NCBI GenBank assembly: GCA_964585085.1
Contig: CAZPCM010000001.1
Location: forward strand, 29,500 to 93,499
Direction: 5' to 3'
DNA: 64,000 nt
Source of the DNA: an uncultured Propionibacteriaceae bacterium
Lineage (GTDB): Bacteria > Actinomycetota > Actinomycetes > Propionibacteriales > Propionibacteriaceae
This document shows, one piece after another, positions 47,309-56,033 of the stretch. A program made the position numbers and the translations under genes. The notes under the pieces are model-generated. The model searched no databases and was not told where the DNA came from. It saw only the letters and a program-made list of their open reading frames with translations. Position 1 is the stretch's first letter; the number at the start of each line of letters is the position of its first letter.

Positions 47309-47550
47309 GGTGGTTCCTCTCGGTCTCTGGGTCTCAGGCTGTCATCCACTCAACCGTGTTTCGCGCCGGTGTGGGAGTCCCTCTGGATGGGTGTACTGAG
47401 AGTGCACCCCACGGCGGCTGTTTCGGCCCGCGTGGTGGTAGCCACGGACGACCGTCGCTCGTCCAGGCGTCTGCAGGCCGGTGCACCTCTGTGCGGTTCC
47501 GGCATCGTCCACGGTGGCGACTCGTCGATGGCCTCGACCATGATGGTGCC

Positions 47551-48507
47551 GTGACCTGGACGAACGGACGCCAGCTGGGTGCCGACCCGCGCGTCGTGTG
47601 CGTCGTCGCCGCAGCGGGTGTTCTGGTCGTCGGCTGGGCGGGTCTGACCGGTGGGGGCGCGATCGTGCACGGCCACCCGCTCTACGCCGTCCTGCTCGTC
47701 GCGACCCTCCTCGGCGCCGGGTTCGGCTGCTGGCGGTCGGGTCGCCCCCGGACCCCCCGGACTCGAGGGCGTCGCATCGTCAGGATCGCCCTGCTCCTCG
47801 CAGGGCTGGCCTGGATCGCGCTGATGGCGTGGCTGCGCCCGTTCTCCGCAGTGGAGCCCGCCGTGGCCGCGATGAGCACCGACGCCAGAATCACCGTCAC
47901 CGACTACCCGACCCGGATCGTCATGTCCCCGACCGGATCCGCCAGCCACACCGGCGTCTTCTTCCAGCCCGGCGCGAGGGTCGACGCGCGCGCCTATGCG
48001 GCCATCCTTCGCCCGCTCGCCGACGCGGGGCACGTCGTCGTCATCGCGAAACAACCCCTGGGCATCGCGTTCCTGTCCATGTCCGACTTCGACGCGACCA
48101 GATCGGACTTCCCGTTCCTGACTCGCTGGGTCGTGGGCGGCCACTCCCTGGGCGGAACCGTCGCCGCGATGCAAGCAGACTCCGGGGACGGCGACCCCGC
48201 CGCACCGGTCGTCGGCCTGCTCCTGTTCGCCTCCTACCCGGCCAACGACATCAGCACCTCGCTCCACGCGAGCGTCCTGTCCATCTCCGGCAGCCATGAC
48301 GGACTCGCCACGCCCGACAAGATCGAGGCCTCCAAGGCCACACTGCCCGCCCACTCGGCGTTCATCACGATCCAGGGGGCCGTGCACTCTTCCTTCGGCG
48401 ACTACGGACCGCAACCCGGGGACGGAATCCCCACGACCAGCCGCGACGACGCCCGGGCGCAGATCTCCCGTGCCGCCGTCGACTTCGTCACCACCCTGAG
48501 CACCTGA
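47551..48507 (+). CDS. Membrane-anchored alpha/beta hydrolase (Abhydrolase_5-like); start approximate
   Basis: N-terminal transmembrane segments; FQPGARVD, VGGHSLGG nucleophile elbow, GSHDG and GAVHSSFGDYG motifs. Confidence 0.8.
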   Translation: MTWTNGRQLGADPRVVCVVAAAGVLVVGWAGLTGGGAIVHGHPLYAVLLVATLLGAGFGCWRSGRPRTPRTRGRRIVRIALLLAGLAWIALMAWLRPFSAVEPAVAAMSTDARITVTDYPTRIVMSPTGSASHTGVFFQPGARVDARAYAAILRPLADAGHVVVIAKQPLGIAFLSMSDFDATRSDFPFLTRWVVGGHSLGGTVAAMQADSGDGDPAAPVVGLLLFASYPANDISTSLHASVLSISGSHDGLATPDKIEASKATLPAHSAFITIQGAVHSSFGDYGPQPGDGIPTTSRDDARAQISRAAVDFVTTLST

Positions 48508-48751
48508 GCCCCCCAGCGCATGCGCCACCAGCCCGAAGCCGGGACAAGACGCCGACGCGAGGGGACGAAGGCCGCGGGCGTGTCGGGGATGTGGGTGGTG
48601 TCAAGGCCATCGCTGGCCGGGTGGCGGCATTTCAGTCGCGGAGGACACCGCCTTCGCCGAGCACCCCCGGGGCGGGACCCCCCACGGTTACAGTGGTTTC
48701 ACGGCGTCCATTGCCCACCGCGCCGCAGGCGATACAGACAACGAGGTCGCC

Positions 48752-51700
48752 ATGTCGCAGTCACCCGGTCCTCGGGGCGGCGGCCGCGGGTGGCTCATCC
48801 GCGGCTCCCTCGCCTTCCTGCTGCTGCCCCTGCTGGCGGTCCTGAGCGCTGCGGCCGTCGCGGCCCGTCCGGCGGCACCCCCGCCCGCGGGGCCGGGGGT
48901 GCCGGTTCTACCCCGGGAGGTGCCTCAGGCCCCCGACTGCCAGGCAGGTGGCCTGCCGGCCGGCTTCGAGGGTTGGGAGGACACCAGCGTCAAGGAGCGG
49001 CGGCTGACCCACGATGTAGCCACGGACGTGATCAAGGCAGCGACCGGTGAATTCATCTCCTGGCGCTGCGCCTACTCGACCAAACCGGTGGGTTCGGGGT
49101 GGGGGGTGAGCGCCACGGTCCTGGCGTGGGTCGAGTACGACTGCCAACCGGACACCTTCCTGCAGACGCAGTACGTGTGGCAGAAGCGCGACAACGACAT
49201 CTTCGGCCTCCCAGACATCCCGGTGACCGGACGGACGGCCACGTCGGTGTCCGGACGGTCCTCGGCCTACCAGGACGGCGGACGCCACCTCATCTACGAT
49301 GCGACAAGGGTGGTTGTCGCGCCGCTCGGCCGGCTGTGGGTGTTCGTCCGCACTGAGAGCGTCAACCCGCCCGCGCCCAGCCCGATGGAGGCGGCGGAGT
49401 TCGTGGACATGGGTACCACGATGGTCCGGCAGTACATGCCGGTCGACACCCTGGGCAAGCGCTGCGGGCTCACCCCGACGGCGTCGGTCAGCTCGACGCC
49501 CGGCACCACGCTGGGGGTGACGCTCGCCTGCCAGAGCAACTTCAGCGACCCCGGGCTGGTCGTCTGCACCGCCACCCCCGTCAACGCCCCGGCCGGCGCG
49601 ACGATCACGTATCAGTGGAGCCTGGACGGACGGCTCCAGGCCGGTACAGGAAGCGAATTGCGGCTCACCGACGTGTCCGCCGGCCGCCACACCGTCACGG
49701 TGCGGGCCACCGACACCGGCAGCGGACAGGCGTCCGAGCCGGAGAGCGTCACCGTCGACACCGGTGGCGCGGGCAGGCCGGGCGAGCAGAGCTCCCCTCT
49801 CGACTCCCTCATCCCGGTCCTGCTCGGCGCTGCCGGGGCGGGACTTGCCGCGGTGGCGGTCGTCGTGATCATCCGCAACACCCGCGGGAAGCCGTCCAAG
49901 CCGACGGGCCCGTCCTCGGGTGGCCCCTCCTCGGGCGGGACGCCGTCAGGTGGGCCGTCCTCAGGTGGCCGGCCCGCAAGTGGCCCCTCCGCAGGGGGGA
50001 CGCCCTCAGGCGGGTCGACAACAAGGCCGCAGACCGGGGGCGGCCCTGCAGGCGGCCCTGCGGGCGGATGGCCCTCCGCGGCACCGCCGTCCCGCCCAAC
50101 CGGGCTTCCTGAGTCCCGGCCGGCCGGCGGGGCACCGTCGGACGGCGGCGCGCCGGGTCTGCCGCCGCGGCCATCCACCCTGCCCGAGGCCGGCCCGCCC
50201 TCCTGGCCGGGCTTGCCGTCGGGTGGCGGGGGTGTCGGCCCGACCGCCGGCGCCCCAGTTGGTGGCGGTGCTTCCGGCGTCGTCCCGACTGCCGGCGGCG
50301 CAGGTGGCGGCGTCCTCGCCACCGCGACCGCGTCCGTCCTGCCGCTGGGCGCGCCCTTGCTGACCTCCCCGCCCTCGCCGCTGGCCTCCTCCCAGCAGCG
50401 CGCCGAGTACTGGTTCGAGGCCGACCCGGCCGCGATCACCGTCCGCGGCGACGCCAGGGACATGGCCAACCTCAGCATCCGGGTCTGGAAGCGCGTCGGC
50501 ACGCTGGTCACCGACGCCGCCGGGGAGGTGCAGGTCTCCGTCCGCCCCTCCGTGCGGCAGAAGATCAAGCTGGAGAAGGCGGCCGGCGGGCTGCAGGTGG
50601 AGGTCCGCGGCCTTCACCTGGGCACCGCCCCCTACGACGGCGCGATCGAGATCTCAGGGCTCAGCCGGTCGGGACTGCTGCCCGTCCCGCCGCTCCGGGT
50701 GCCCGTCCGGATCACCCCGGTTCCGGCGCAGGTCCGGATCGTCGCGCTCAAGGACGGCTTCCACTTCCAGAGCTACGACGAGGCGCTGGCCCGCAGTTGC
50801 TTGAAGCTGACCGGATATGCCACCGCCTCCCGCGGCCCGCTGGGTGAGGAGCAGGTGACGATCGCCCACGCGCGCTGCGTGGCCGAGGTGAACGTGGACG
50901 GCCGGGGCTGGGCGGTGTTCGGCCGGACGACGACGGACGAGAACGGCTGGTTCTCGTTCCCGATGCACCCGACAGTGGTCGCGCTGTGGGGCGCGGACGA
51001 GGCCGCGCACGCGCTGGTCCGGCCCGTCCAGCTGGACCTGAGCGAGGACTCCCGGACGGCGCTGAAGACCTTCCAGACCTATACGGCGTCGATTCCCGAC
51101 ACCACCGGTTTCGCGACCGCACGCGAGCAGTACGGCCGCTATCCCGGGGTGTTCTTCCGCCAGCTGTGCAAGAACGAGGAGTCCGACGCCAGACGTATCC
51201 TCGGCGCGATCCACCTGCTGTGCCAGTCGATCACCTTCGTGAGCATCTACCGCCACAGCTTCCAGGCGCAGCGTTCGTGTGTCCGGACGGCGATCAGTGA
51301 GACGTTCGGGTCGCTGACGACGGTCGTCATCGAGTTCACCGGCGTTGTCGGACTCGCCTGGGACTTCGCGCATGCCATGACCCACCCGAACGTCCTGAGC
51401 CTGGCGGCCCGCGAGGCGAACCTCGGGACGCTGCGCCGGACGCTGTTGACGTTCGCCGGCGAGTGCGCGACGCGCTGGAGTCGCTGGGTCAGCCAGACCA
51501 ACGCGCTGCGCCAGAAGCTCGCCAAGAACCTCAAGTCGATCTGGCCCTACGCCAAACCGTCCGCGCTGCCCGAGTTCGTCTCCAGCACCTACGAGGCGGA
51601 GGTTTCGGGGTACCTTCGCGGCCGGACCGGCCCGGTGGCGTCAGGGGACGCCACGGCGCAGTGGCTGGACGACCTGATCGTCAAGCTCGTGGTCGGACTG

Positions 51701-52528
51701 GTGGTGACCTTGGTCGCGGTCGCCATGCTGCCGGTGTACCTCATCACCGTGCTGATGCTGGCGGTGTTCGTGCTGCTGTACGCCGGCGCGAGCGCGATCC
51801 GCGCTGTCGGCAGCATGTTCGCCTGGGGCGGGGTCGCCGGCGGACGCGAGGCGCTGATCGACGCGATCGAAAAGGGCCTGGCGGGCGTGGTGGGCTCCCT
51901 CTACGACCGCATCTGGGGCTGGAACGACGCGGTGCGCACCCAACTGATGTCGTTGCCGCCCGGAGGCGGGGCCACCACCCCGGATCTGGCTTCGTGGGTC
52001 CTGGAAGCCTTCCCCACGGTCGACGACTTCGACCAGGTGATGGGCCGGGCCCTCGAAGAGGCGATGTACCTCTCCGAGCACCTGCTGGTGCCCGACGACG
52101 CGGCGGCCGCGGCCGAGCGGGTCCGAGCAGCCGAGGTGGCCGACCGCGAAGCCGCGAAGCAGTGGGCGGAGAAGGTCGAGACGATGGAGATCGCCATGGC
52201 GGCCCTGCAGGTGGCCTACACCGCCTTCAGCGGGATGGGCTACCTGGCGGGACTGGTGCTCTCCCGGGGGGCGATCCTGGGCCTGGGCGGCCTTCCGGCG
52301 CTCACGCAGCGGTTCGCTGGAGGCGCGAAGGCGCTCAGCACACGGGCCGAGGCGGCCGTCCTGCGGCTCTCGGCGCTCTGCGACAAGGTCGGCTCCGCGG
52401 TCGACTTCGGACAGAAGGCCTGGATCCTGTGGCAGACCATCACCGATCTGGAGCTCTACCGGCACGTCCCGCAGCGGCGGATCGGCCATCTCTACCGTCG
52501 TGAGGGGGGGCAGAGCGATGGACGGTGA
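48752..52528 (+). CDS. Large uncharacterised membrane protein: signal peptide, Cys-containing ectodomain, PKD/Ig-like domain, transmembrane helix, Gly/Pro/Ser linker, large C-terminal region with hydrophobic segments
   Basis: 1,258-aa ORF after GAGG; ITYQWSLDG...GRHTVTVRATD Ig/PKD-like motif; LIPVLLGAAGAGLAAVAVVVII followed by RNTRGK. Confidence 0.8.
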   Translation: MSQSPGPRGGGRGWLIRGSLAFLLLPLLAVLSAAAVAARPAAPPPAGPGVPVLPREVPQAPDCQAGGLPAGFEGWEDTSVKERRLTHDVATDVIKAATGEFISWRCAYSTKPVGSGWGVSATVLAWVEYDCQPDTFLQTQYVWQKRDNDIFGLPDIPVTGRTATSVSGRSSAYQDGGRHLIYDATRVVVAPLGRLWVFVRTESVNPPAPSPMEAAEFVDMGTTMVRQYMPVDTLGKRCGLTPTASVSSTPGTTLGVTLACQSNFSDPGLVVCTATPVNAPAGATITYQWSLDGRLQAGTGSELRLTDVSAGRHTVTVRATDTGSGQASEPESVTVDTGGAGRPGEQSSPLDSLIPVLLGAAGAGLAAVAVVVIIRNTRGKPSKPTGPSSGGPSSGGTPSGGPSSGGRPASGPSAGGTPSGGSTTRPQTGGGPAGGPAGGWPSAAPPSRPTGLPESRPAGGAPSDGGAPGLPPRPSTLPEAGPPSWPGLPSGGGGVGPTAGAPVGGGASGVVPTAGGAGGGVLATATASVLPLGAPLLTSPPSPLASSQQRAEYWFEADPAAITVRGDARDMANLSIRVWKRVGTLVTDAAGEVQVSVRPSVRQKIKLEKAAGGLQVEVRGLHLGTAPYDGAIEISGLSRSGLLPVPPLRVPVRITPVPAQVRIVALKDGFHFQSYDEALARSCLKLTGYATASRGPLGEEQVTIAHARCVAEVNVDGRGWAVFGRTTTDENGWFSFPMHPTVVALWGADEAAHALVRPVQLDLSEDSRTALKTFQTYTASIPDTTGFATAREQYGRYPGVFFRQLCKNEESDARRILGAIHLLCQSITFVSIYRHSFQAQRSCVRTAISETFGSLTTVVIEFTGVVGLAWDFAHAMTHPNVLSLAAREANLGTLRRTLLTFAGECATRWSRWVSQTNALRQKLAKNLKSIWPYAKPSALPEFVSSTYEAEVSGYLRGRTGPVASGDATAQWLDDLIVKLVVGLVVTLVAVAMLPVYLITVLMLAVFVLLYAGASAIRAVGSMFAWGGVAGGREALIDAIEKGLAGVVGSLYDRIWGWNDAVRTQLMSLPPGGGATTPDLASWVLEAFPTVDDFDQVMGRALEEAMYLSEHLLVPDDAAAAAERVRAAEVADREAAKQWAEKVETMEIAMAALQVAYTAFSGMGYLAGLVLSRGAILGLGGLPALTQRFAGGAKALSTRAEAAVLRLSALCDKVGSAVDFGQKAWILWQTITDLELYRHVPQRRIGHLYRREGGQSDGR

Positions 52529-53456
52529 CTGGCCGACGCTGGATGTCACCGCGGTGGGGCCGGTGCTCGACGAGTTCGTGACCCTGCTGGCGCCCGGGCC
52601 TGACCAAGCGCCCAGCACAACAGTCCTGCTGGCCCAGGTGGGCGCGGTGCTGGCCGGCCTGAGCGAGTGCCCCGCCCTGCCACCGGAGCAGTCGCCGGCG
52701 GCCGGCCAACCCTGGCGCGGCCTGCGGATCACGGACGGGGAATGCCTCGCGGTCTGGGCCTGGCGTGTCGGACAACCACCGGAGGTGTCGCTGGGGGTCA
52801 CCTCGTCGTCCGACCGCGGCGCGGACCTGACCGTCGAGATCGGCGAACAGACCTGGATCTTCCAGCAGCCTCCGCACGCCGAACCCCGGCAGCTGTTCGG
52901 TCCCGAGCGGGTGGCCGGGATCCTCACCGACTCGGCCACCGACGTCCTCGCCCAGCAGGCGCAGGACAGCCTGAACGTCCACACGCGCGAGGTCTACCAG
53001 CAGTGGCTGGAGAAGCAGGGACTCCCGGCGTCCTGGGTGTGCCCAGCCTGCGGCATGGTCAACGACCAGCGCGGGGAGGTCTGCAGCATCTGCCGGGAAC
53101 CGACGCCGACGGACGCGCCGCCGTTCTTCCCCGGCATGATCGTCGAGCTCCCGGAGCTCCTCCGCAGCCCGCCGGCGATCCCGGACGTCCCCTCGGCGAT
53201 CCACGACCTCTTCCAGCCCTCGGCGGAGGAGGCCCAGTCGCCCGACTACCTCCAGCAATGGCTCGACGAAGTCTCCTCGAAGACCTGGGACGAGGTCGTC
53301 GAGTTCACCGCCCACACCGTCGAACACGCGGTGGCCACGACCCCCTGCGTCGCGTGCGGCCGGGGCATCCCGCACGGTGCGGACCCCTGCCCGGTCTGCG
53401 GCGCCTCGCAACATGCTCCCGGGGCGCCCCCGCGTCCGTCCGTCCTGCCCCGATGA
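52518..53456 (+). CDS. Uncharacterised protein with a RanBP2-type zinc finger and a C-terminal zinc ribbon
   Basis: ATG 52518 overlaps the upstream gene end; WVCPACGMVNDQRGEVCSICR and CVACGRGIPHGADPCPVCG. Confidence 0.8.
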   Translation: MDGDWPTLDVTAVGPVLDEFVTLLAPGPDQAPSTTVLLAQVGAVLAGLSECPALPPEQSPAAGQPWRGLRITDGECLAVWAWRVGQPPEVSLGVTSSSDRGADLTVEIGEQTWIFQQPPHAEPRQLFGPERVAGILTDSATDVLAQQAQDSLNVHTREVYQQWLEKQGLPASWVCPACGMVNDQRGEVCSICREPTPTDAPPFFPGMIVELPELLRSPPAIPDVPSAIHDLFQPSAEEAQSPDYLQQWLDEVSSKTWDEVVEFTAHTVEHAVATTPCVACGRGIPHGADPCPVCGASQHAPGAPPRPSVLPR

Positions 53457-53473
53457 TCGGCTGAGGAGCGCTC

Positions 53474-54730
53474 ATGGATCAGTTCACCCACGTGGAACAG
53501 GAGTACGCCCGGTTGCGCGGCCAGTTGCAGGCCGGTCAGCTGACCCGGCAGCAGTTCGAGGCCGCGCTGGACCAGCTGATGTTCGTCCACGACAACCGCT
53601 ACTGGATGATCGGGGTGGAATCCGGCACCTGGTTCGTCCACGACCAGGGGCGCTGGTTGGCAGCGGAGCACCCGCGTCCGTCCGGGACCAGCGCTCCGAG
53701 CCCAACCCCCGCACCGGCACCTGCACCCCTTCCGCCCCCAGCGCCCACACCAACTCCGGCCTCCGCTCCCGCAGCGTCACCTTCCCCCGCCCCCGCACCG
53801 GCCGCCTGGGAGGTGCGCCGCTTCAGCCACGGGAGCGCCGTGGAGTGCGTGGCCCTCTCCCCGGACGGCCGGCTGGCCGCCTCGGGCGGGGACGACGGCG
53901 CCCTGCGGATCTGGGACGTCTCCACCGGCCACGCCCTCGGGGCCCTGATGGCGCACCAGTTCGGGGTCAGCTCTGTCGCCCTCGCGTCACGTTTCGCCTT
54001 GTCCGGCGGCAATGACCGGGCCGTCCGGGTCTGGGACCTCCGGACCGGAAGCCAGTTGCGGCACCTGGAGCATGCAGACGCGGTCACCTGCGTGGCCTGG
54101 TCGCCCACCGGGGAGAGTTTCTCCGGCTCCCAGGACCGGACGCTGCTGTGCTGGAACCACGAGCGGGGCCAGGTCCTGCGACGATACGAGGGGCACACCG
54201 CCGGCGTGACCGGCCTCGCGGTCTCCCGCGACGGGCGCGTCCTGGTCTCAGTCGGCAACGACGGCACGCTGCGGGTCTGGGAGGCCGCCACCGGCCGCCT
54301 GTACGGGCGGATCGAACTGGGCAATATGTACACCGACCCCCTGGTCCGCACGGTGGCGCTGTCGCCCGACGGCCAGTACGCGCTGACCTGCAGCCTGGCC
54401 GCCAGCGCCGACCTGTGGGACCTGCGGCGCGGCGTCCGGATCAGGGGTTTCGAGGGCCCGACTGTCAACGTGTTCGGCGTCGCCTTCTCCCCCGACGGCC
54501 GCCTCGCCTGGGCCTGCTCGGGCAGCGACTTCATGCCGGCGGGTGAGCGTGGCCCGCGCGGCCACGACAACGTCATCTGGGCCTGGGACGCCGCCTCCGG
54601 CGCCGTCCGAATCTGCCTCGAGGGCCATGCGGGCAACGTCAACAGCATCGCGATCGCCGCGGACGGCCGCCACGTGCTCAGCGGAAGCCGGGACGGGACC
54701 GTCCGGCTGTGGCAGCCGCGGCTGCCCTGA
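53474..54730 (+). CDS. WD40-repeat protein (7 blades) with a small N-terminal domain and Pro-rich linker
   Basis: GAGGAG ribosome-binding site; seven repeats ending IWD, VWD, CWN, VWE, LWD, AWD and LWQ. Confidence 0.92.
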   Translation: MDQFTHVEQEYARLRGQLQAGQLTRQQFEAALDQLMFVHDNRYWMIGVESGTWFVHDQGRWLAAEHPRPSGTSAPSPTPAPAPAPLPPPAPTPTPASAPAASPSPAPAPAAWEVRRFSHGSAVECVALSPDGRLAASGGDDGALRIWDVSTGHALGALMAHQFGVSSVALASRFALSGGNDRAVRVWDLRTGSQLRHLEHADAVTCVAWSPTGESFSGSQDRTLLCWNHERGQVLRRYEGHTAGVTGLAVSRDGRVLVSVGNDGTLRVWEAATGRLYGRIELGNMYTDPLVRTVALSPDGQYALTCSLAASADLWDLRRGVRIRGFEGPTVNVFGVAFSPDGRLAWACSGSDFMPAGERGPRGHDNVIWAWDAASGAVRICLEGHAGNVNSIAIAADGRHVLSGSRDGTVRLWQPRLP

Positions 54731-54830
54731 GGGGGCCAGGGGCGTAGCCTGAAGGTGCGAGTGCAGGGGCTCCGCGCGACGGAGTTCTGTTCGATCCTTG
54801 GTCCCGACCCTCAACGAGGAGATGAGGACG

Positions 54831-56033
54831 ATGACAAGGCTCACCATGAGCATTCCGATCGACGCCCCGCCCGGGGGCGTGTTCAACTTCCTGAAGGACC
54901 CGGCCAGGTTGGCCGGGTCGATGCCCCACACACAAGCCCGCGACGCCCATCTGACGCCTGAGGGCGTGGGCACCACGGCCGTGTGGGAAGGCAGGTTCCT
55001 CGGCATCCCGGTGGCCGCGACCATCGAGTACACCGAGTTCGTCCCGGACGAGCGGCTCGTCGTGACATCGTCCAAGGGCTTCGTCTTCAGTTTCAGCCTC
55101 GAGCCCGCCGGAGGAGGGACGGAGTTGACCCTCACCGAAGAGGACGTCCCGTCGAACTGGGCTGAATCGGCGGTCGACGCGGTCGCCATGAAGCTGACCG
55201 AGCATGACCTCGACACCTGGCTCGCGGGAATCAAGGCGGGAGCTGAAGGACAGCCGCCCGCGGAGGTTGTCGCGACAGCCGGCCAGTCGGGATCCGCCCG
55301 GGCGCCCCTCGACCCTCAGAACCTCCCCAAGGAACTGATGGTCCGGCTGCTGAATCTGCACGCCGACGTCCTGTCCCAGCGGTTCGGCGCCGCGACGGCC
55401 GAGGTGATGAGGCGCGAGATCCTGCAGGAGTACCGGGCGCTGATTCCGGGCCTGCCCGAGATCGGCGGCCGCAGCAATCCGGAGTCGATGTCGATGGTGC
55501 TGGCCCCTTGGGCCCTCGGGCTGTACCGGGTGGTCCAACGGCAGGGCGGTAGCGTGGAGGACGCGGGAGAAGTCATCCACTACTGCTTCAAGAAGCTTCT
55601 CGGTCGCATCCCCCGGAGACTGCGCCTGTCTATGGGCCGGACGAGAACCCGGGAAACGGCCGAGAAGAAGGCCCGCTGGTTCGCCGAGCACTACTACCCC
55701 GACAACTGGGTCTACGGAGTCGTCGACGGTACCGGGCAGCCCTTCGACTTCGGACTCGACGCCACCCAATGCGCCATCGTCAACTACCTGCACGCCAAGG
55801 GGGCAGACGAACTCACGCCCTACCTGTGCGACCTCGACTACGTGATGTTCGAGGCCATGGGCCTCGGACTCACCCGCACCAAGACGCTGGCGTGGGGCTG
55901 CGATCGCTGCGACTTCAGGGTCACGAACCCTGGCACGACCACCAGCCCGTGGCCGCCGCTGTTCGTCGAACGCGCCTGCGGCCGGCAGGAGCCGAACCCG
56001 TCGGGAGCGCCAATCCCTGCTGCTCGGGGGTAG
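54831..56033 (+). CDS. Fusion of an SRPBCC/START-like domain and an L-2-amino-thiazoline-4-carboxylate-hydrolase-like (V4R-type Cys-rich) domain
   Basis: N-terminal SIPIDAPPGGVFNFLKDP...GVGTT...YTEFVPDERLV; C-terminal FGLDATQCAIVNY...YLCDLD...RTKTLAWGCDRCDFR. Confidence 0.7.
   Translation: MTRLTMSIPIDAPPGGVFNFLKDPARLAGSMPHTQARDAHLTPEGVGTTAVWEGRFLGIPVAATIEYTEFVPDERLVVTSSKGFVFSFSLEPAGGGTELTLTEEDVPSNWAESAVDAVAMKLTEHDLDTWLAGIKAGAEGQPPAEVVATAGQSGSARAPLDPQNLPKELMVRLLNLHADVLSQRFGAATAEVMRREILQEYRALIPGLPEIGGRSNPESMSMVLAPWALGLYRVVQRQGGSVEDAGEVIHYCFKKLLGRIPRRLRLSMGRTRTRETAEKKARWFAEHYYPDNWVYGVVDGTGQPFDFGLDATQCAIVNYLHAKGADELTPYLCDLDYVMFEAMGLGLTRTKTLAWGCDRCDFRVTNPGTTTSPWPPLFVERACGRQEPNPSGAPIPAARG

What the first reader, a model, noticed from the sequence alone, without database searches (positions are those of the whole stretch)
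48752..54730. Uncharacterised three-gene operon with eukaryote-like interaction domains (receptor-like membrane protein, RanBP2 zinc finger, WD40)
Seen: three co-oriented genes with an 11-nt overlap and a 17-nt gap. They encode a single-pass protein with a Cys-containing ectodomain and PKD-like domain plus a large inner region, a double zinc-finger protein, and a 7-blade propeller. No kinase, NTPase or DNA-binding domain is recognisable. Inference: a transmembrane sensing or assembly complex, possibly for conflict, defence or envelope signalling, that matches no system I can name.
Basis: partly seen in the sequence, partly recalled or inferred. Interest (0 to 1): 0.72.

Follow-up and report, generated by a model that had tools for sequence, protein, structure and literature searches.

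The report
Rare three-gene membrane scaffold module
A wastewater actinobacterium carries a rare three-gene set that is kept together in a few other bacteria: a large membrane protein, a zinc-finger partner and a propeller protein. None of them contains an enzyme domain or matches any described system, so the set looks like a new membrane-bound protein assembly whose function is still unknown.

Summary
The three genes are real, tightly packed and conserved together. g1 (48752-52528, 1258 aa) has a signal peptide, a variable Cys-containing ectodomain, a conserved PKD-like domain and a TM helix. Inside the cell it has a Pro/Gly repeat linker, two Ig-like sandwiches and a long-helix region with a hydrophobic hairpin, so it is not strictly single-pass. 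g2 (52518-53456, 312 aa) is acidic and soluble. It has an α/β domain of unrecognised fold, an invariant RanBP2/NZF-type finger and a variable C-terminal module. g3 (53474-54730, 418 aa) joins a 65-aa docking module to seven WD40 repeats.

An exhaustive HMMER search found only 31 g1 relatives among 1.84 billion representatives. None was found in 40 related genomes or 400 genomes of the phylum. A g2 homolog follows g1 in all 14 readable loci, including an Acidobacteriota MAG. A third gene with the same N-module is present in 9 of 12 loci, but it carries WD40 only in this clade and membrane anchors elsewhere.

g1 and the g2 N-domain have no Pfam, NCBIfam or PADLOC family, and no convincing solved fold matches g1's helical region or the g2 N-domain. 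The best reading is a non-enzymatic sub-membrane sensing or assembly complex. A defence role is possible but unproven.

The parts
48508..48751 (+). 244-nt intergenic region upstream of g1; presumed promoter region
   Evidence: It lies between the stop of the α/β-hydrolase gene and the g1 ATG. The consensus scan found no sigma-70 site and no terminator between 48300 and 55100.
48752..52528 (+). g1: 1258-aa membrane protein and founding member of a rare family with no existing model
   Evidence: It has no Pfam or NCBIfam family. HMMER found 31 relatives among 1.84 billion representatives.
48791..48865 (+). g1 signal peptide or N-terminal anchor (aa 14-38)
   Evidence: Hydropathy peak of 2.53 after an Arg-rich N-terminus.
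48866..49486 (+). g1 variable ectodomain (aa 39-245) with lineage-specific Cys
   Evidence: Mean identity is 18% and coverage only 47% across 15 relatives.
49487..49771 (+). g1 PKD-like Ig domain (aa 246-340) with the conserved Cys pair C260/C272
   Evidence: Pfam PKD E 1.3e-3 (19.1 bits, cut-off 23.5). Four of 16 members hit PKD. PHROG Hoc-like Ig E 8.7e-5. This is the best-conserved block, at 40% identity.
49808..49873 (+). g1 TM1 (aa 353-374), followed by RNTRGK
   Evidence: Hydropathy peak of 2.68. A TM segment at the equivalent place was picked up in 15 of the 16 family members.
49874..50386 (+). g1 Pro/Gly/Ser-rich disordered linker (aa 375-545), including a 15-nt tandem repeat at 49910-50014
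   Evidence: Strains differ here by 25-aa and 8-aa indels.
50396..51037 (+). g1 tandem Ig-like β-sandwiches (aa 549-762), predicted to be cytoplasmic
   Evidence: AF2 pLDDT above 90. Foldseek hits to invasin, cadherin, S-layer and phage Ig domains. One member hits CarboxypepD_reg.
51038..52525 (+). g1 long-helix region (aa 763-1258), ending in the conserved R-I/V-x-x-L-Y motif
   Evidence: AF2 predicts helices of 54-66 residues. No solved or viral fold matches it.
51674..51811 (+). g1 hydrophobic helical hairpin (aa 975-1020)
   Evidence: Hydropathy peak of 2.81 over 56 residues. The hydrophobic character is conserved across the family.
52518..53456 (+). g2: 312-aa acidic soluble partner, starting 11 nt before the g1 stop
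   Evidence: Homologs follow g1 in every readable locus. pI is 4.35.
52518..52922 (+). g2 N-terminal α/β domain (aa 1-135): two helices and a six-strand meander
   Evidence: AF2 pLDDT 70-90. Only weak similarity to p32/MAM33 (probability 0.2-0.33, E above 0.1).
53034..53102 (+). g2 RanBP2/NZF-type zinc finger (W-x-C-x2-C-x3-N-x6-C-x2-C)
   Evidence: The four Cys are invariant in all 10 members. Profile against PDB RanBP2/NZF fingers gives E from 5.7e-7 to 1e-3. The model superposes on these fingers at 0.4-0.9 Å.
53346..53405 (+). g2 second CxxC-x10-CxxC zinc ribbon, not conserved in the family
   Evidence: Pfam DZR E 7e-4. It is replaced by an L7/L12-CTD-like domain in L015 (E 1e-13), and apparently in L012, L019 and L020.
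53474..54730 (+). g3: 418-aa protein, 17 nt after g2
53474..53671 (+). g3 N-terminal docking module (aa 1-66): a SHOCT-like helical part followed by a Trp-rich β-hairpin (R42, W44, G47, W53, W61 invariant)
   Evidence: Alignment A6. Pfam SHOCT only E 0.048. The same module heads the third gene in L002, L009, L015, L018/L038, L019, L020 and L034, and in L017 where that gene lies upstream of g1.
53672..53806 (+). g3 Pro/Ala-rich linker
   Evidence: Read from the translation.
53807..54727 (+). g3 seven-repeat WD40 β-propeller, a clade-specific addition
   Evidence: Pfam WD40 E 1.2e-53 with 7 stretches. It is absent from the third gene in L015, L018, L019 and L034.

Best explanation
This is a dedicated three-protein module that assembles at the cytoplasmic face of the membrane. 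It contains no enzyme domain, so it must work through binding and assembly.

g1 is the membrane-embedded core. Outside the cell it shows a fast-evolving Cys-containing domain on a conserved, probably disulfide-bonded PKD-like stalk. Inside, a long flexible Pro/Gly linker carries two Ig-like domains and a long-helix region that dips back into the membrane through a hydrophobic hairpin.

g2 is made in step with g1, because their reading frames overlap. It is an acidic adaptor with an invariant RanBP2/NZF-type finger and an exchangeable C-terminal domain. g3 brings a system-typical 65-aa SHOCT-like/Trp-hairpin module, which would dock it to the complex or to the inner leaflet. In this lineage g3 also adds a WD40 propeller as a further interaction platform.

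The most likely mode of action is outside-in. A ligand or a disturbance at the ectodomain changes the state of g1's helical/hairpin region, and with it the assembly of g2 and g3 beneath the membrane.

Shown: the gene structure, the domain anatomy, the conserved co-occurrence, the rarity and patchy spread, purifying selection, and the absence of known catalytic domains. Inferred: the physical complex, the topology of the inner part, the direction of signalling and the biological role.
For: Tight packing with ribosome-binding sites and no terminator-like site.

A g2 homolog lies directly after g1, overlapping or within 27 nt, in all 14 readable distinct loci at 25-71% g1 identity: L002, L009, L010, L011, L012, L014, L015, L017, L018/L038, L019, L020, L034 and L039. 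One of these is an Acidobacteriota MAG, while the window's genome is actinobacterial, with three WhiB genes.

The third gene carries the same N-module in 9 of 12 loci, with different C-terminal parts.

In 20 related genomes and elsewhere in this genome, the module occurs only in this operon.

The g1 architecture is conserved across 16 members, with a variable N-terminal ectodomain (18% identity) and a conserved PKD-like domain (40%) and inner domains.

AF2 models exist for g1 (pLDDT 75.7; Ig domains above 90) and g2 (pLDDT 65; N-domain 70-90). The finger matches RanBP2/NZF fingers.

Pfam, NCBIfam, PADLOC and PHROGs find no catalytic domain.

dN/dS is 0.13-0.19 for g1 and g3.

SHOCT-like bihelical domains have been proposed to anchor disparate domains to the inner leaflet and to assemble membrane-associated complexes (PMC11237479).
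Against: No interaction has been tested or modelled, because no multimer tool was available.

The SHOCT match is below threshold (E 0.048).

Tandem Ig-like domains with semi-conserved Cys (C683 in 12 of 16 members, C709 in 9 of 16) are more typical of extracellular proteins. The predicted inside location of aa 549-762 therefore rests only on hydropathy and the positive-inside rule.

About 40% of the g1 helical region is modelled with low confidence.

The g3 N-module also occurs in many Chloroflexota membrane proteins that lack g1 and g2, so it is not exclusive to this system.

Evidence for transcription is a single 219-nt metatranscriptome contig.
Confidence: 0.5

Rival explanations
1. An anti-phage or other conflict system. 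g1 would monitor the envelope from outside and act as its own effector: its hydrophobic helical hairpins would open or disorder the membrane (abortive infection). g2 and g3 would hold it in check or trigger it.
For: The distribution is extremely patchy. The module is absent from 24 congeners and 16 same-order genomes and from 400 genomes of the phylum, yet it is present in at least two phyla. The ectodomain is variable while the inner part is conserved. There is no enzyme, but there are conserved hydrophobic hairpins. One homolog sits about 2 kb from Gabija (GajA E 5e-131, GajB E 8e-73) and an Mrr-type nuclease.
Against: g1 and g2 have no PADLOC hit. Only about 1 of 8 readable neighbourhoods is a defence island. 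The others hold sugar metabolism, ribosomal protein, polysaccharide or ESX genes. No integrase or tRNA lies nearby and the GC content does not shift. No similarity to a pore-forming fold was found.
Confidence: 0.25
2. An accessory cell-surface or envelope module with a maintenance role. This could be adhesion or floc and biofilm contact through the PKD-like ectodomain, or an envelope-stress scaffold analogous to PSP partners. It would not act in conflict.
For: The host and nearly all holders come from activated sludge, wastewater or biofilm metagenomes. PKD- and Ig-like domains are typical surface binding modules. SHOCT-like domains are linked to membrane-associated stress complexes (PMC11237479). 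In most members the third gene is itself a bitopic membrane protein with an extracellular part.
Against: No PspA, PspC, Toastrack, LiaF, sortase or polysaccharide gene is consistently linked to the module. The module's rarity argues against a general envelope function.
Confidence: 0.2
3. An accessory of a type VII (ESX) secretion system. The NZF-like finger of g2 would bind ubiquitin-like domains such as those of EccD or YukD.
For: One homolog (L019) lies between rplM-rpsI and an ESX cluster with two WXG100 genes, an FtsK/SpoIIIE ATPase and EccD/YukD. From general knowledge, NZF fingers bind ubiquitin folds; the matching PDB entries are listed.
Against: Only one of about ten contexts is near ESX genes, and none is near the window's operon. 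The ubiquitin-binding T-F dipeptide of NZF fingers is G-M in the window.
Confidence: 0.04
4. Three unrelated neighbours that happen to be adjacent.
For: No direct experimental link exists, and the RNA evidence is minimal.
Against: The order and the overlap are conserved down to about 25% identity and across phyla.
Confidence: 0.01

Closest known systems
RanBP2-type / NZF zinc fingers (Nup153, RanBP2, TRABID, HOIP, Npl4, Vps36; also the ArnA finger of the archaeal ArnAB complex)
   Same: g2 aa 173-195 has the W-x-C-x2-C-x3-N-x6-C-x2-C spacing. A profile of the family matches solved fingers at E from 5.7e-7 to 1e-3. The model superposes on them at 0.4-0.9 Å.
   Different: The finger is a single 25-residue element inside a bacterial protein whose other parts match nothing. 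The Pfam score is below the gathering threshold. The ubiquitin-binding T-F signature is absent here (G-M), so the ligand cannot be inferred.
SHOCT-like membrane-proximal adaptor domains of PSP-associated proteins (Ravi et al. 2024, PMC11237479)
   Same: The first half of the g3 N-module is a short helical element with weak SHOCT similarity. It sits at the terminus of otherwise unrelated domains (WD40 or TM anchors), always on the cytoplasmic side.
   Different: The match is sub-threshold (E 0.048). The module continues into a Trp-rich β-hairpin (R-Y-W-M-I-G...W-Y...W) that is not part of SHOCT. No PSP component is linked to it.
Membrane-anchored defence systems that monitor the envelope (Zorya ZorAB, Kiwa KwaA); named from my own knowledge
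   Same: A multi-component system with a membrane protein that has external parts and cytoplasmic partners, and a patchy distribution.
   Different: There is no homology. PADLOC, which includes Zorya models, has no hit for g1 or g2. The module has no motor, nuclease or DUF4868 partner.
NTP-dependent conflict systems with WD40/TPR arrays in multicellular bacteria (Kaur et al. 2020, PMC7159879; seen only in the search listing, content from my own knowledge)
   Same: Bacterial WD40 propellers used as interaction platforms in rare, eukaryote-like multi-domain systems of actinobacteria.
   Different: The defining STAND or other NTPase and the effector domains are absent.
Bitopic Chloroflexota/Acidobacteriota membrane proteins that carry the same 65-aa N-module
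   Same: They share the module (34-57% identity), followed by a Pro-rich linker and a TM segment. This matches the third gene of most g1-g2 loci.
   Different: They have no g1 or g2 nearby and different extracellular parts. The family is undescribed and has no Pfam model.

Membership tests
RanBP2-type/NZF zinc finger (g2 first finger) | W-x-C-x2-C-x3-N-x6-C-x2-C spacing with four Zn-binding Cys | tested here: met
   WVCPACGMVNDQRGEVCSIC. The four Cys are invariant in 10 of 10 members and N182 is nearly invariant.
RanBP2-type/NZF zinc finger (g2 first finger) | Significant sequence match to the family model | tested here: inconclusive
   Pfam Zn_ribbon_RanBP scores 14.3 bits against a cut-off of 27 for the single sequence. 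The family profile against PDB fingers gives E from 5.7e-7 to 1e-3.
RanBP2-type/NZF zinc finger (g2 first finger) | Fold superposes on solved fingers | tested here: met
   Foldseek gives rmsd 0.4-0.9 Å, TMt 0.63-0.92 and probability 0.97-0.99 over 25-29 residues. This is a predicted model, and the E-values are not significant because of the short length.
RanBP2-type/NZF zinc finger (g2 first finger) | Ubiquitin-binding T-F...Φ signature of NZF fingers | tested here: not met
   The window has G-M at that position. Relatives have A-W, D-W, A-F or V-W.
WD40 β-propeller (g3 C-terminal part) | Seven WD repeats above the Pfam threshold | tested here: met
   PF00400 E 1.2e-53, 177.6 bits, 7 stretches.
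PKD domain (g1 aa 246-340) | Match above the Pfam gathering score | tested here: inconclusive
   19.1 bits against a cut-off of 23.5. Four of 16 family members hit PKD (best E 6.6e-5). The region also hits the Hoc-like Ig PHROG at E 8.7e-5. It is best described as a PKD-like Ig domain.
SHOCT domain (g3 aa 12-36) | Match above the Pfam gathering score | tested here: not met
   13.9 bits against a cut-off of 27, E 0.048.
WW domain (g3 aa 42-66; a lead from my own pattern reading) | Sequence similarity to WW domains | tested here: not met
   No WW hit in Pfam at E up to 0.1. The module profile found no WW domain among PDB chains at E up to 10.
Known anti-phage defence systems (PADLOC-DB 2.0) | Any component matching a defence-system model | tested here: not met
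   g1 and g2 have no hit. g3 hits a repeat model (HEAT-ARM_XIII) through its WD40 part, plus a weak ZorF match (E 0.045) on its Pro-rich linker.
PSP / envelope-stress systems | Linked PspA, PspC, Toastrack or LiaI-LiaF-TM gene | tested here: not met
   None is present in the window's neighbourhood or in the 12 related loci.
NTP-dependent conflict systems / STAND with WD40 | A STAND, AAA+ or other NTPase in the operon | tested here: not met
   The trio has no NTPase domain. The AAA_16 cyclase in L009 is a separate gene 3.3 kb upstream, and two genes on the opposite strand lie between it and g1.
p32/MAM33 fold (g2 N-domain) | Significant structural match | tested here: inconclusive
   The best Foldseek hits are 1yqf and 1p32 at E 0.15-0.5, probability 0.2-0.33. 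The domain is acidic (pI 4.1-5.0), as p32 is, but there is no sequence match.

The most novel reading that the evidence does not exclude
A previously unrecognised, enzyme-free envelope-surveillance system. A receptor-like membrane protein with a diversifying ectodomain acts as both sensor and membrane-active effector. It is controlled from inside by a RanBP2/NZF-finger adaptor and a docking-module protein. The system would have spread by horizontal transfer between Actinomycetota and Acidobacteriota, and it reuses 'eukaryotic' interaction domains (NZF finger, WD40, Ig/PKD) in a bacterial immune or conflict role.
Probability: 0.22. Interest if true: 0.75.

Novelty: categorically new. Interest (0 to 1): 0.55.

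Why it matters
If the three proteins do form one machine, it would be a new kind of bacterial transmembrane assembly built only from interaction domains. Two of its parts, g1 and the g2 N-domain, have no family model and no recognisable solved fold.

The work also defines three undescribed sequence families: the g1 family, the g2 family, and a 65-aa SHOCT-like/Trp-hairpin module that is widespread in Chloroflexota membrane proteins. It adds a clear case of a RanBP2/NZF-type finger conserved in a bacterial operon.

The practical weight is limited. The system is very rare, its hosts are uncultured, and no function has been shown.

Tried and rejected
1. The word-based homolog search for g1 and g2 found only near-identical proteins and one relative with 57% identity. 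The exhaustive HMMER search was needed to find the family.

2. The search for related loci with g1 alignments failed twice because no stretch was conserved enough. The PKD block worked in the metagenome collection but gave only 2 loci.

3. The genome search with the large alignment returned errors twice. The single-protein search worked, but its loose first-pass filter may miss relatives at about 25% identity.

4. I tried to define an insertion site by comparing synteny with a congener (G010). Only the downstream ATC-hydrolase gene is shared there, so no boundaries could be set.

5. Foldseek of the g1 inner region against the PDB and BFVD returned only Ig-domain hits plus non-specific long-helix hits (Tc toxin, Rad50, tape measure; probability 0.06-0.44). 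I rejected these as evidence.

6. Foldseek of g2 gave no significant hit. The FBPase and p32 hits were not accepted.

7. My idea that the g3 module is WW-like found no support.

8. Two literature searches found no description of this gene set.

9. The RNA search found one metatranscriptome run with a single 219-nt contig. That is too little to show co-transcription.

10. A prophage or mobile-element origin is not supported. There are no relevant PHROG hits, no nearby tRNA and no GC shift.


Full report
**Observation**

The window has about 70% G+C. Three + strand ORFs with GC3 of 0.90 occupy 48752-52528 (g1, 1258 aa), 52518-53456 (g2, 312 aa) and 53474-54730 (g3, 418 aa). An alternative GTG start for g2 at 52500 is also open. 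The ATG of g2 lies inside the last codons of g1, giving an 11-nt overlap, and GAGGGGGG precedes it. g3 starts 17 nt after the g2 stop, behind GAGGAG. No terminator-like site lies inside the block. A 244-nt spacer separates g1 from the upstream α/β-hydrolase gene. Against a near-identical strain, dN/dS is 0.19 for g1, 0.69 for g2 and 0.13 for g3. Against a relative with 57-71% protein identity, dN stays well below dS. The genes are real and under selection.

**Anatomy of g1**

Hydropathy shows several membrane features:
- an Arg-rich N-terminus with a signal or anchor segment (aa 14-38);
- a TM helix at aa 353-374, followed by RNTRGK;
- a 45-residue hydrophobic stretch at aa 975-1020, long enough for a helical hairpin.

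The protein is therefore not strictly single-pass.

The outer part has a poorly conserved N-domain (18% mean identity, half of it not alignable) and a well-conserved PKD-like Ig domain (40%). The Cys pair C260/C272 in that domain is kept in 13 of 16 members. Pfam PKD is just below threshold. Four relatives hit PKD, and a Hoc-like Ig PHROG also hits the region.

After TM1 comes a 170-residue Pro/Gly/Ser linker. It is built partly from a 15-nt tandem repeat and varies in length between strains.

An AF2 model of aa 545-1258 was built with 28 sequences and has pLDDT 75.7. It gives two β-sandwiches (pLDDT above 90), then helices of 54-66 residues. Foldseek against the PDB and against viral models returns only Ig-domain matches (invasin, cadherin, S-layer, phage decoration and tail proteins). 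Nothing credible matches the helical part. A 16-member profile of the whole protein finds nothing relevant among PDB sequences.

**Anatomy of g2**

g2 has no TM segment and is acidic (pI 4.35). The AF2 model (pLDDT 65) shows an N-domain of two helices and a six-strand meander (pLDDT 70-90). This is followed by a long helix, a small finger, a disordered acidic Pro-rich spacer, a helix and a second ribbon.

The first finger, WVCPACGMVNDQRGEVCSIC, has invariant Cys in all ten family members. The family profile matches solved RanBP2/NZF fingers at E from 5.7e-7 to 1e-3, and the model superposes on them at 0.4-0.9 Å. The NZF ubiquitin-binding T-F dipeptide is not present.

The second ribbon is not a family feature. 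In L015 it is replaced by a ribosomal L7/L12-CTD-like domain (Pfam E 1e-13), and similar sequence occurs in L012, L019 and L020. The N-domain has only a weak, non-significant resemblance to p32/MAM33.

**Anatomy of g3**

g3 has seven WD40 repeats (E 1e-53). Before them come a Pro/Ala linker and a 65-aa N-terminal module in which F4, Y11, R42, W44, G47, W53 and W61 are invariant across seven sequences. The first half of the module resembles SHOCT only weakly (E 0.048). My impression that the second half is WW-like was not supported.

**Relatives and co-occurrence**

An exhaustive HMMER search of 1.84 billion representatives with g1 aa 545-1258 found 31 proteins. Most are 1000-1400 aa long and have the same architecture. 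None carries a Pfam family beyond occasional PKD, zinc-ribbon or RDD hits.

I fetched contigs for ten of these relatives, plus the contigs that carry the two g2 homologs, and obtained three more loci from pattern scans.

- **g2.** In every distinct locus where the downstream DNA can be read, a g2 homolog follows g1 directly, overlapping or within 27 nt. There are 14 such loci: the window's species, L002, L009, L010, L011, L012, L014, L015, L017, L018/L038, L019, L020, L034 and L039.
- **Third gene with the module.** A third gene carries the same N-module in 9 of 12 loci. It is fused to WD40 only in the window, L002 and L009. In L015, L019 and L034 it is fused to TM segments. In L018/L038 it has an extra N-terminal zinc ribbon and a TM segment. 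In L017 it has a zinc ribbon, a TM segment and an outer domain, and it lies upstream of g1.
- **Third gene without the module.** L010 and L039 instead have a zinc-ribbon/TM protein whose outer domain is homologous to that of the L017 protein. L014 has a zinc-ribbon/TM protein and a PQQ-type propeller upstream.

The conserved unit is therefore g1+g2 plus a third protein that acts at the cytoplasmic face of the membrane. The WD40 propeller is a lineage-specific exchange.

**Distribution**

- No g1 homolog was found in 24 genomes of the same genus and 16 of the same order.
- None was found in 400 genomes from 249 genera of the phylum.
- The g3 module is absent from 20 related genomes and from the rest of this genome.
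- The host is an actinobacterium, with three WhiB genes, from wastewater or activated sludge.
- L034 is an Acidobacteriota MAG with g1-g2-g3 in the same order.

The module is thus rare, patchy and shared between phyla.

The g3 N-module on its own is more widespread. Fifteen further GTDB genomes, mostly Chloroflexota/Anaerolineae with some Acidobacteriota and Aminicenantes, carry it at the cytoplasmic end of bitopic membrane proteins that have no g1 or g2 nearby.

**Neighbourhoods**

In the window the neighbours are xylose isomerase, xylulokinase, an alcohol dehydrogenase, an α/β-hydrolase and an SRPBCC-ATC-hydrolase fusion. Elsewhere they are varied:
- Gabija (GajA/GajB) plus an Mrr-type nuclease in L010;
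- rplM-rpsI and an ESX cluster in L019;
- polysaccharide genes in L018;
- a cyclase-AAA_16-TPR protein in L009.

No partner recurs beyond the trio. There is no clear defence-island enrichment, no tRNA or integrase nearby and no GC shift.

**Interpretation**

All recognisable parts are binding modules: Ig/PKD, zinc fingers, WD40 and a SHOCT-like element. No catalytic domain appears in any member. The three proteins meet at the inner face of the membrane. g1 does so through its linker, Ig pair and helical hairpin region. g2 is a soluble acidic adaptor whose synthesis is coupled to that of g1. g3 arrives through a module that, in all its other occurrences, sits on the cytoplasmic side of a membrane anchor. 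SHOCT-like elements have been proposed to bring disparate domains to the inner leaflet and to assemble membrane complexes (PMC11237479).

The contrast between a variable outer N-domain and a conserved inner part is what one expects of a receptor. I therefore read the module as a non-enzymatic, outside-in sensing or assembly complex (confidence 0.5).

Its biological role is open. Rarity and transfer between phyla fit a conflict or defence role, with g1's hairpins as a membrane-active output (0.25). The habitat and the surface domains fit an adhesion or envelope role (0.2). A link to ESX is weak (0.04).

**Unresolved**

- Tandem Ig domains with semi-conserved Cys (C683, C709) are unusual in the cytoplasm, so the topology needs an experiment.
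- RNA evidence is limited to one 219-nt metatranscriptome contig that covers the 3' end of g2 and 10 nt of the spacer.

**Novelty**

g1 and the g2 N-domain have no Pfam, NCBIfam, PADLOC or PHROG model, and no solved fold matches g1's helical region or the g2 N-domain. Two literature searches found no description. The set cannot be filed under any known kind of system. It is a new module of unknown function, but it is rare and so far purely computational.

Noticed in passing
window 49910-50014 (g1 linker): A 15-nt tandem repeat (about 7 copies, PSSGG-type units) encodes part of the Pro/Gly linker. The near-identical strain differs here by 25-aa and 8-aa indels, so the linker length is polymorphic.
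   Followed up: partly
L015:7826-8848; also L012:9182-10096, L019:9791-10738, L020:3992-4984: In these relatives the second zinc ribbon of g2 is replaced by a ribosomal L7/L12 C-terminal-domain-like module (Pfam E 1e-13 in L015). This domain is known for binding translational GTPases, so it is an unexpected exchange partner for a zinc ribbon.
   Followed up: partly
L022-L033, L035-L037 (Chloroflexota, Acidobacteriota and Aminicenantes MAGs): The 65-aa g3 N-module (…GRYWM[IL]G…W[YF]…W…) is an undescribed, fairly widespread cytoplasmic domain of bitopic membrane proteins. It is usually N-terminal, before a Pro-rich linker and a TM segment. In L031 and L032 it is C-terminal, after a secreted domain and a TM segment. 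It has no Pfam model.
   Followed up: partly
L010:128-4679: A complete Gabija pair (GajA E 5e-131, GajB E 8e-73) and an Mrr-type nuclease lie about 2 kb upstream of one g1 homolog.
   Followed up: yes
L019:1-17794: One g1-g2-g3 set is inserted between rplM-rpsI and an ESX/type VII secretion cluster (two WXG100 genes, an FtsK/SpoIIIE ATPase and EccD/YukD).
   Followed up: no
window 54798-56033: The downstream gene is a fusion of an SRPBCC (Polyketide_cyc2/AHSA1) domain with an ATC_hydrolase domain. Gene callers on sister contigs start it later (281 aa), but a congener matches residues 2-410. The genome has at least four more SRPBCC paralogs, three of them in tandem on contig C16, one of which has an in-frame TAG.
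   Followed up: partly
window 47556-48507: An α/β-hydrolase gene (GHSLGG motif, Abhydrolase_5 in sister contigs) lies directly upstream of the operon. The long ORF pair 47350-48528 (-) and 47356-48507 (+) is a high-GC shadow-ORF effect, and only the + frame shows GC3 bias.
   Followed up: partly
window 50798-50878 (g1 C683 and C709) and 51167-51169 (C806): Cys residues are semi-conserved in the second Ig-like domain (12 of 16 and 9 of 16 members) and in the QLC motif (11 of 16). This part of g1 is predicted to be cytoplasmic, so the Cys may form a metal site, or the topology prediction may be wrong.
   Followed up: no
window 53248-53466: A 219-nt contig from a wastewater metatranscriptome matches perfectly. 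It covers the 3' end of g2 and 10 nt of the g2-g3 spacer, which is a weak hint of transcription across the junction.
   Followed up: partly
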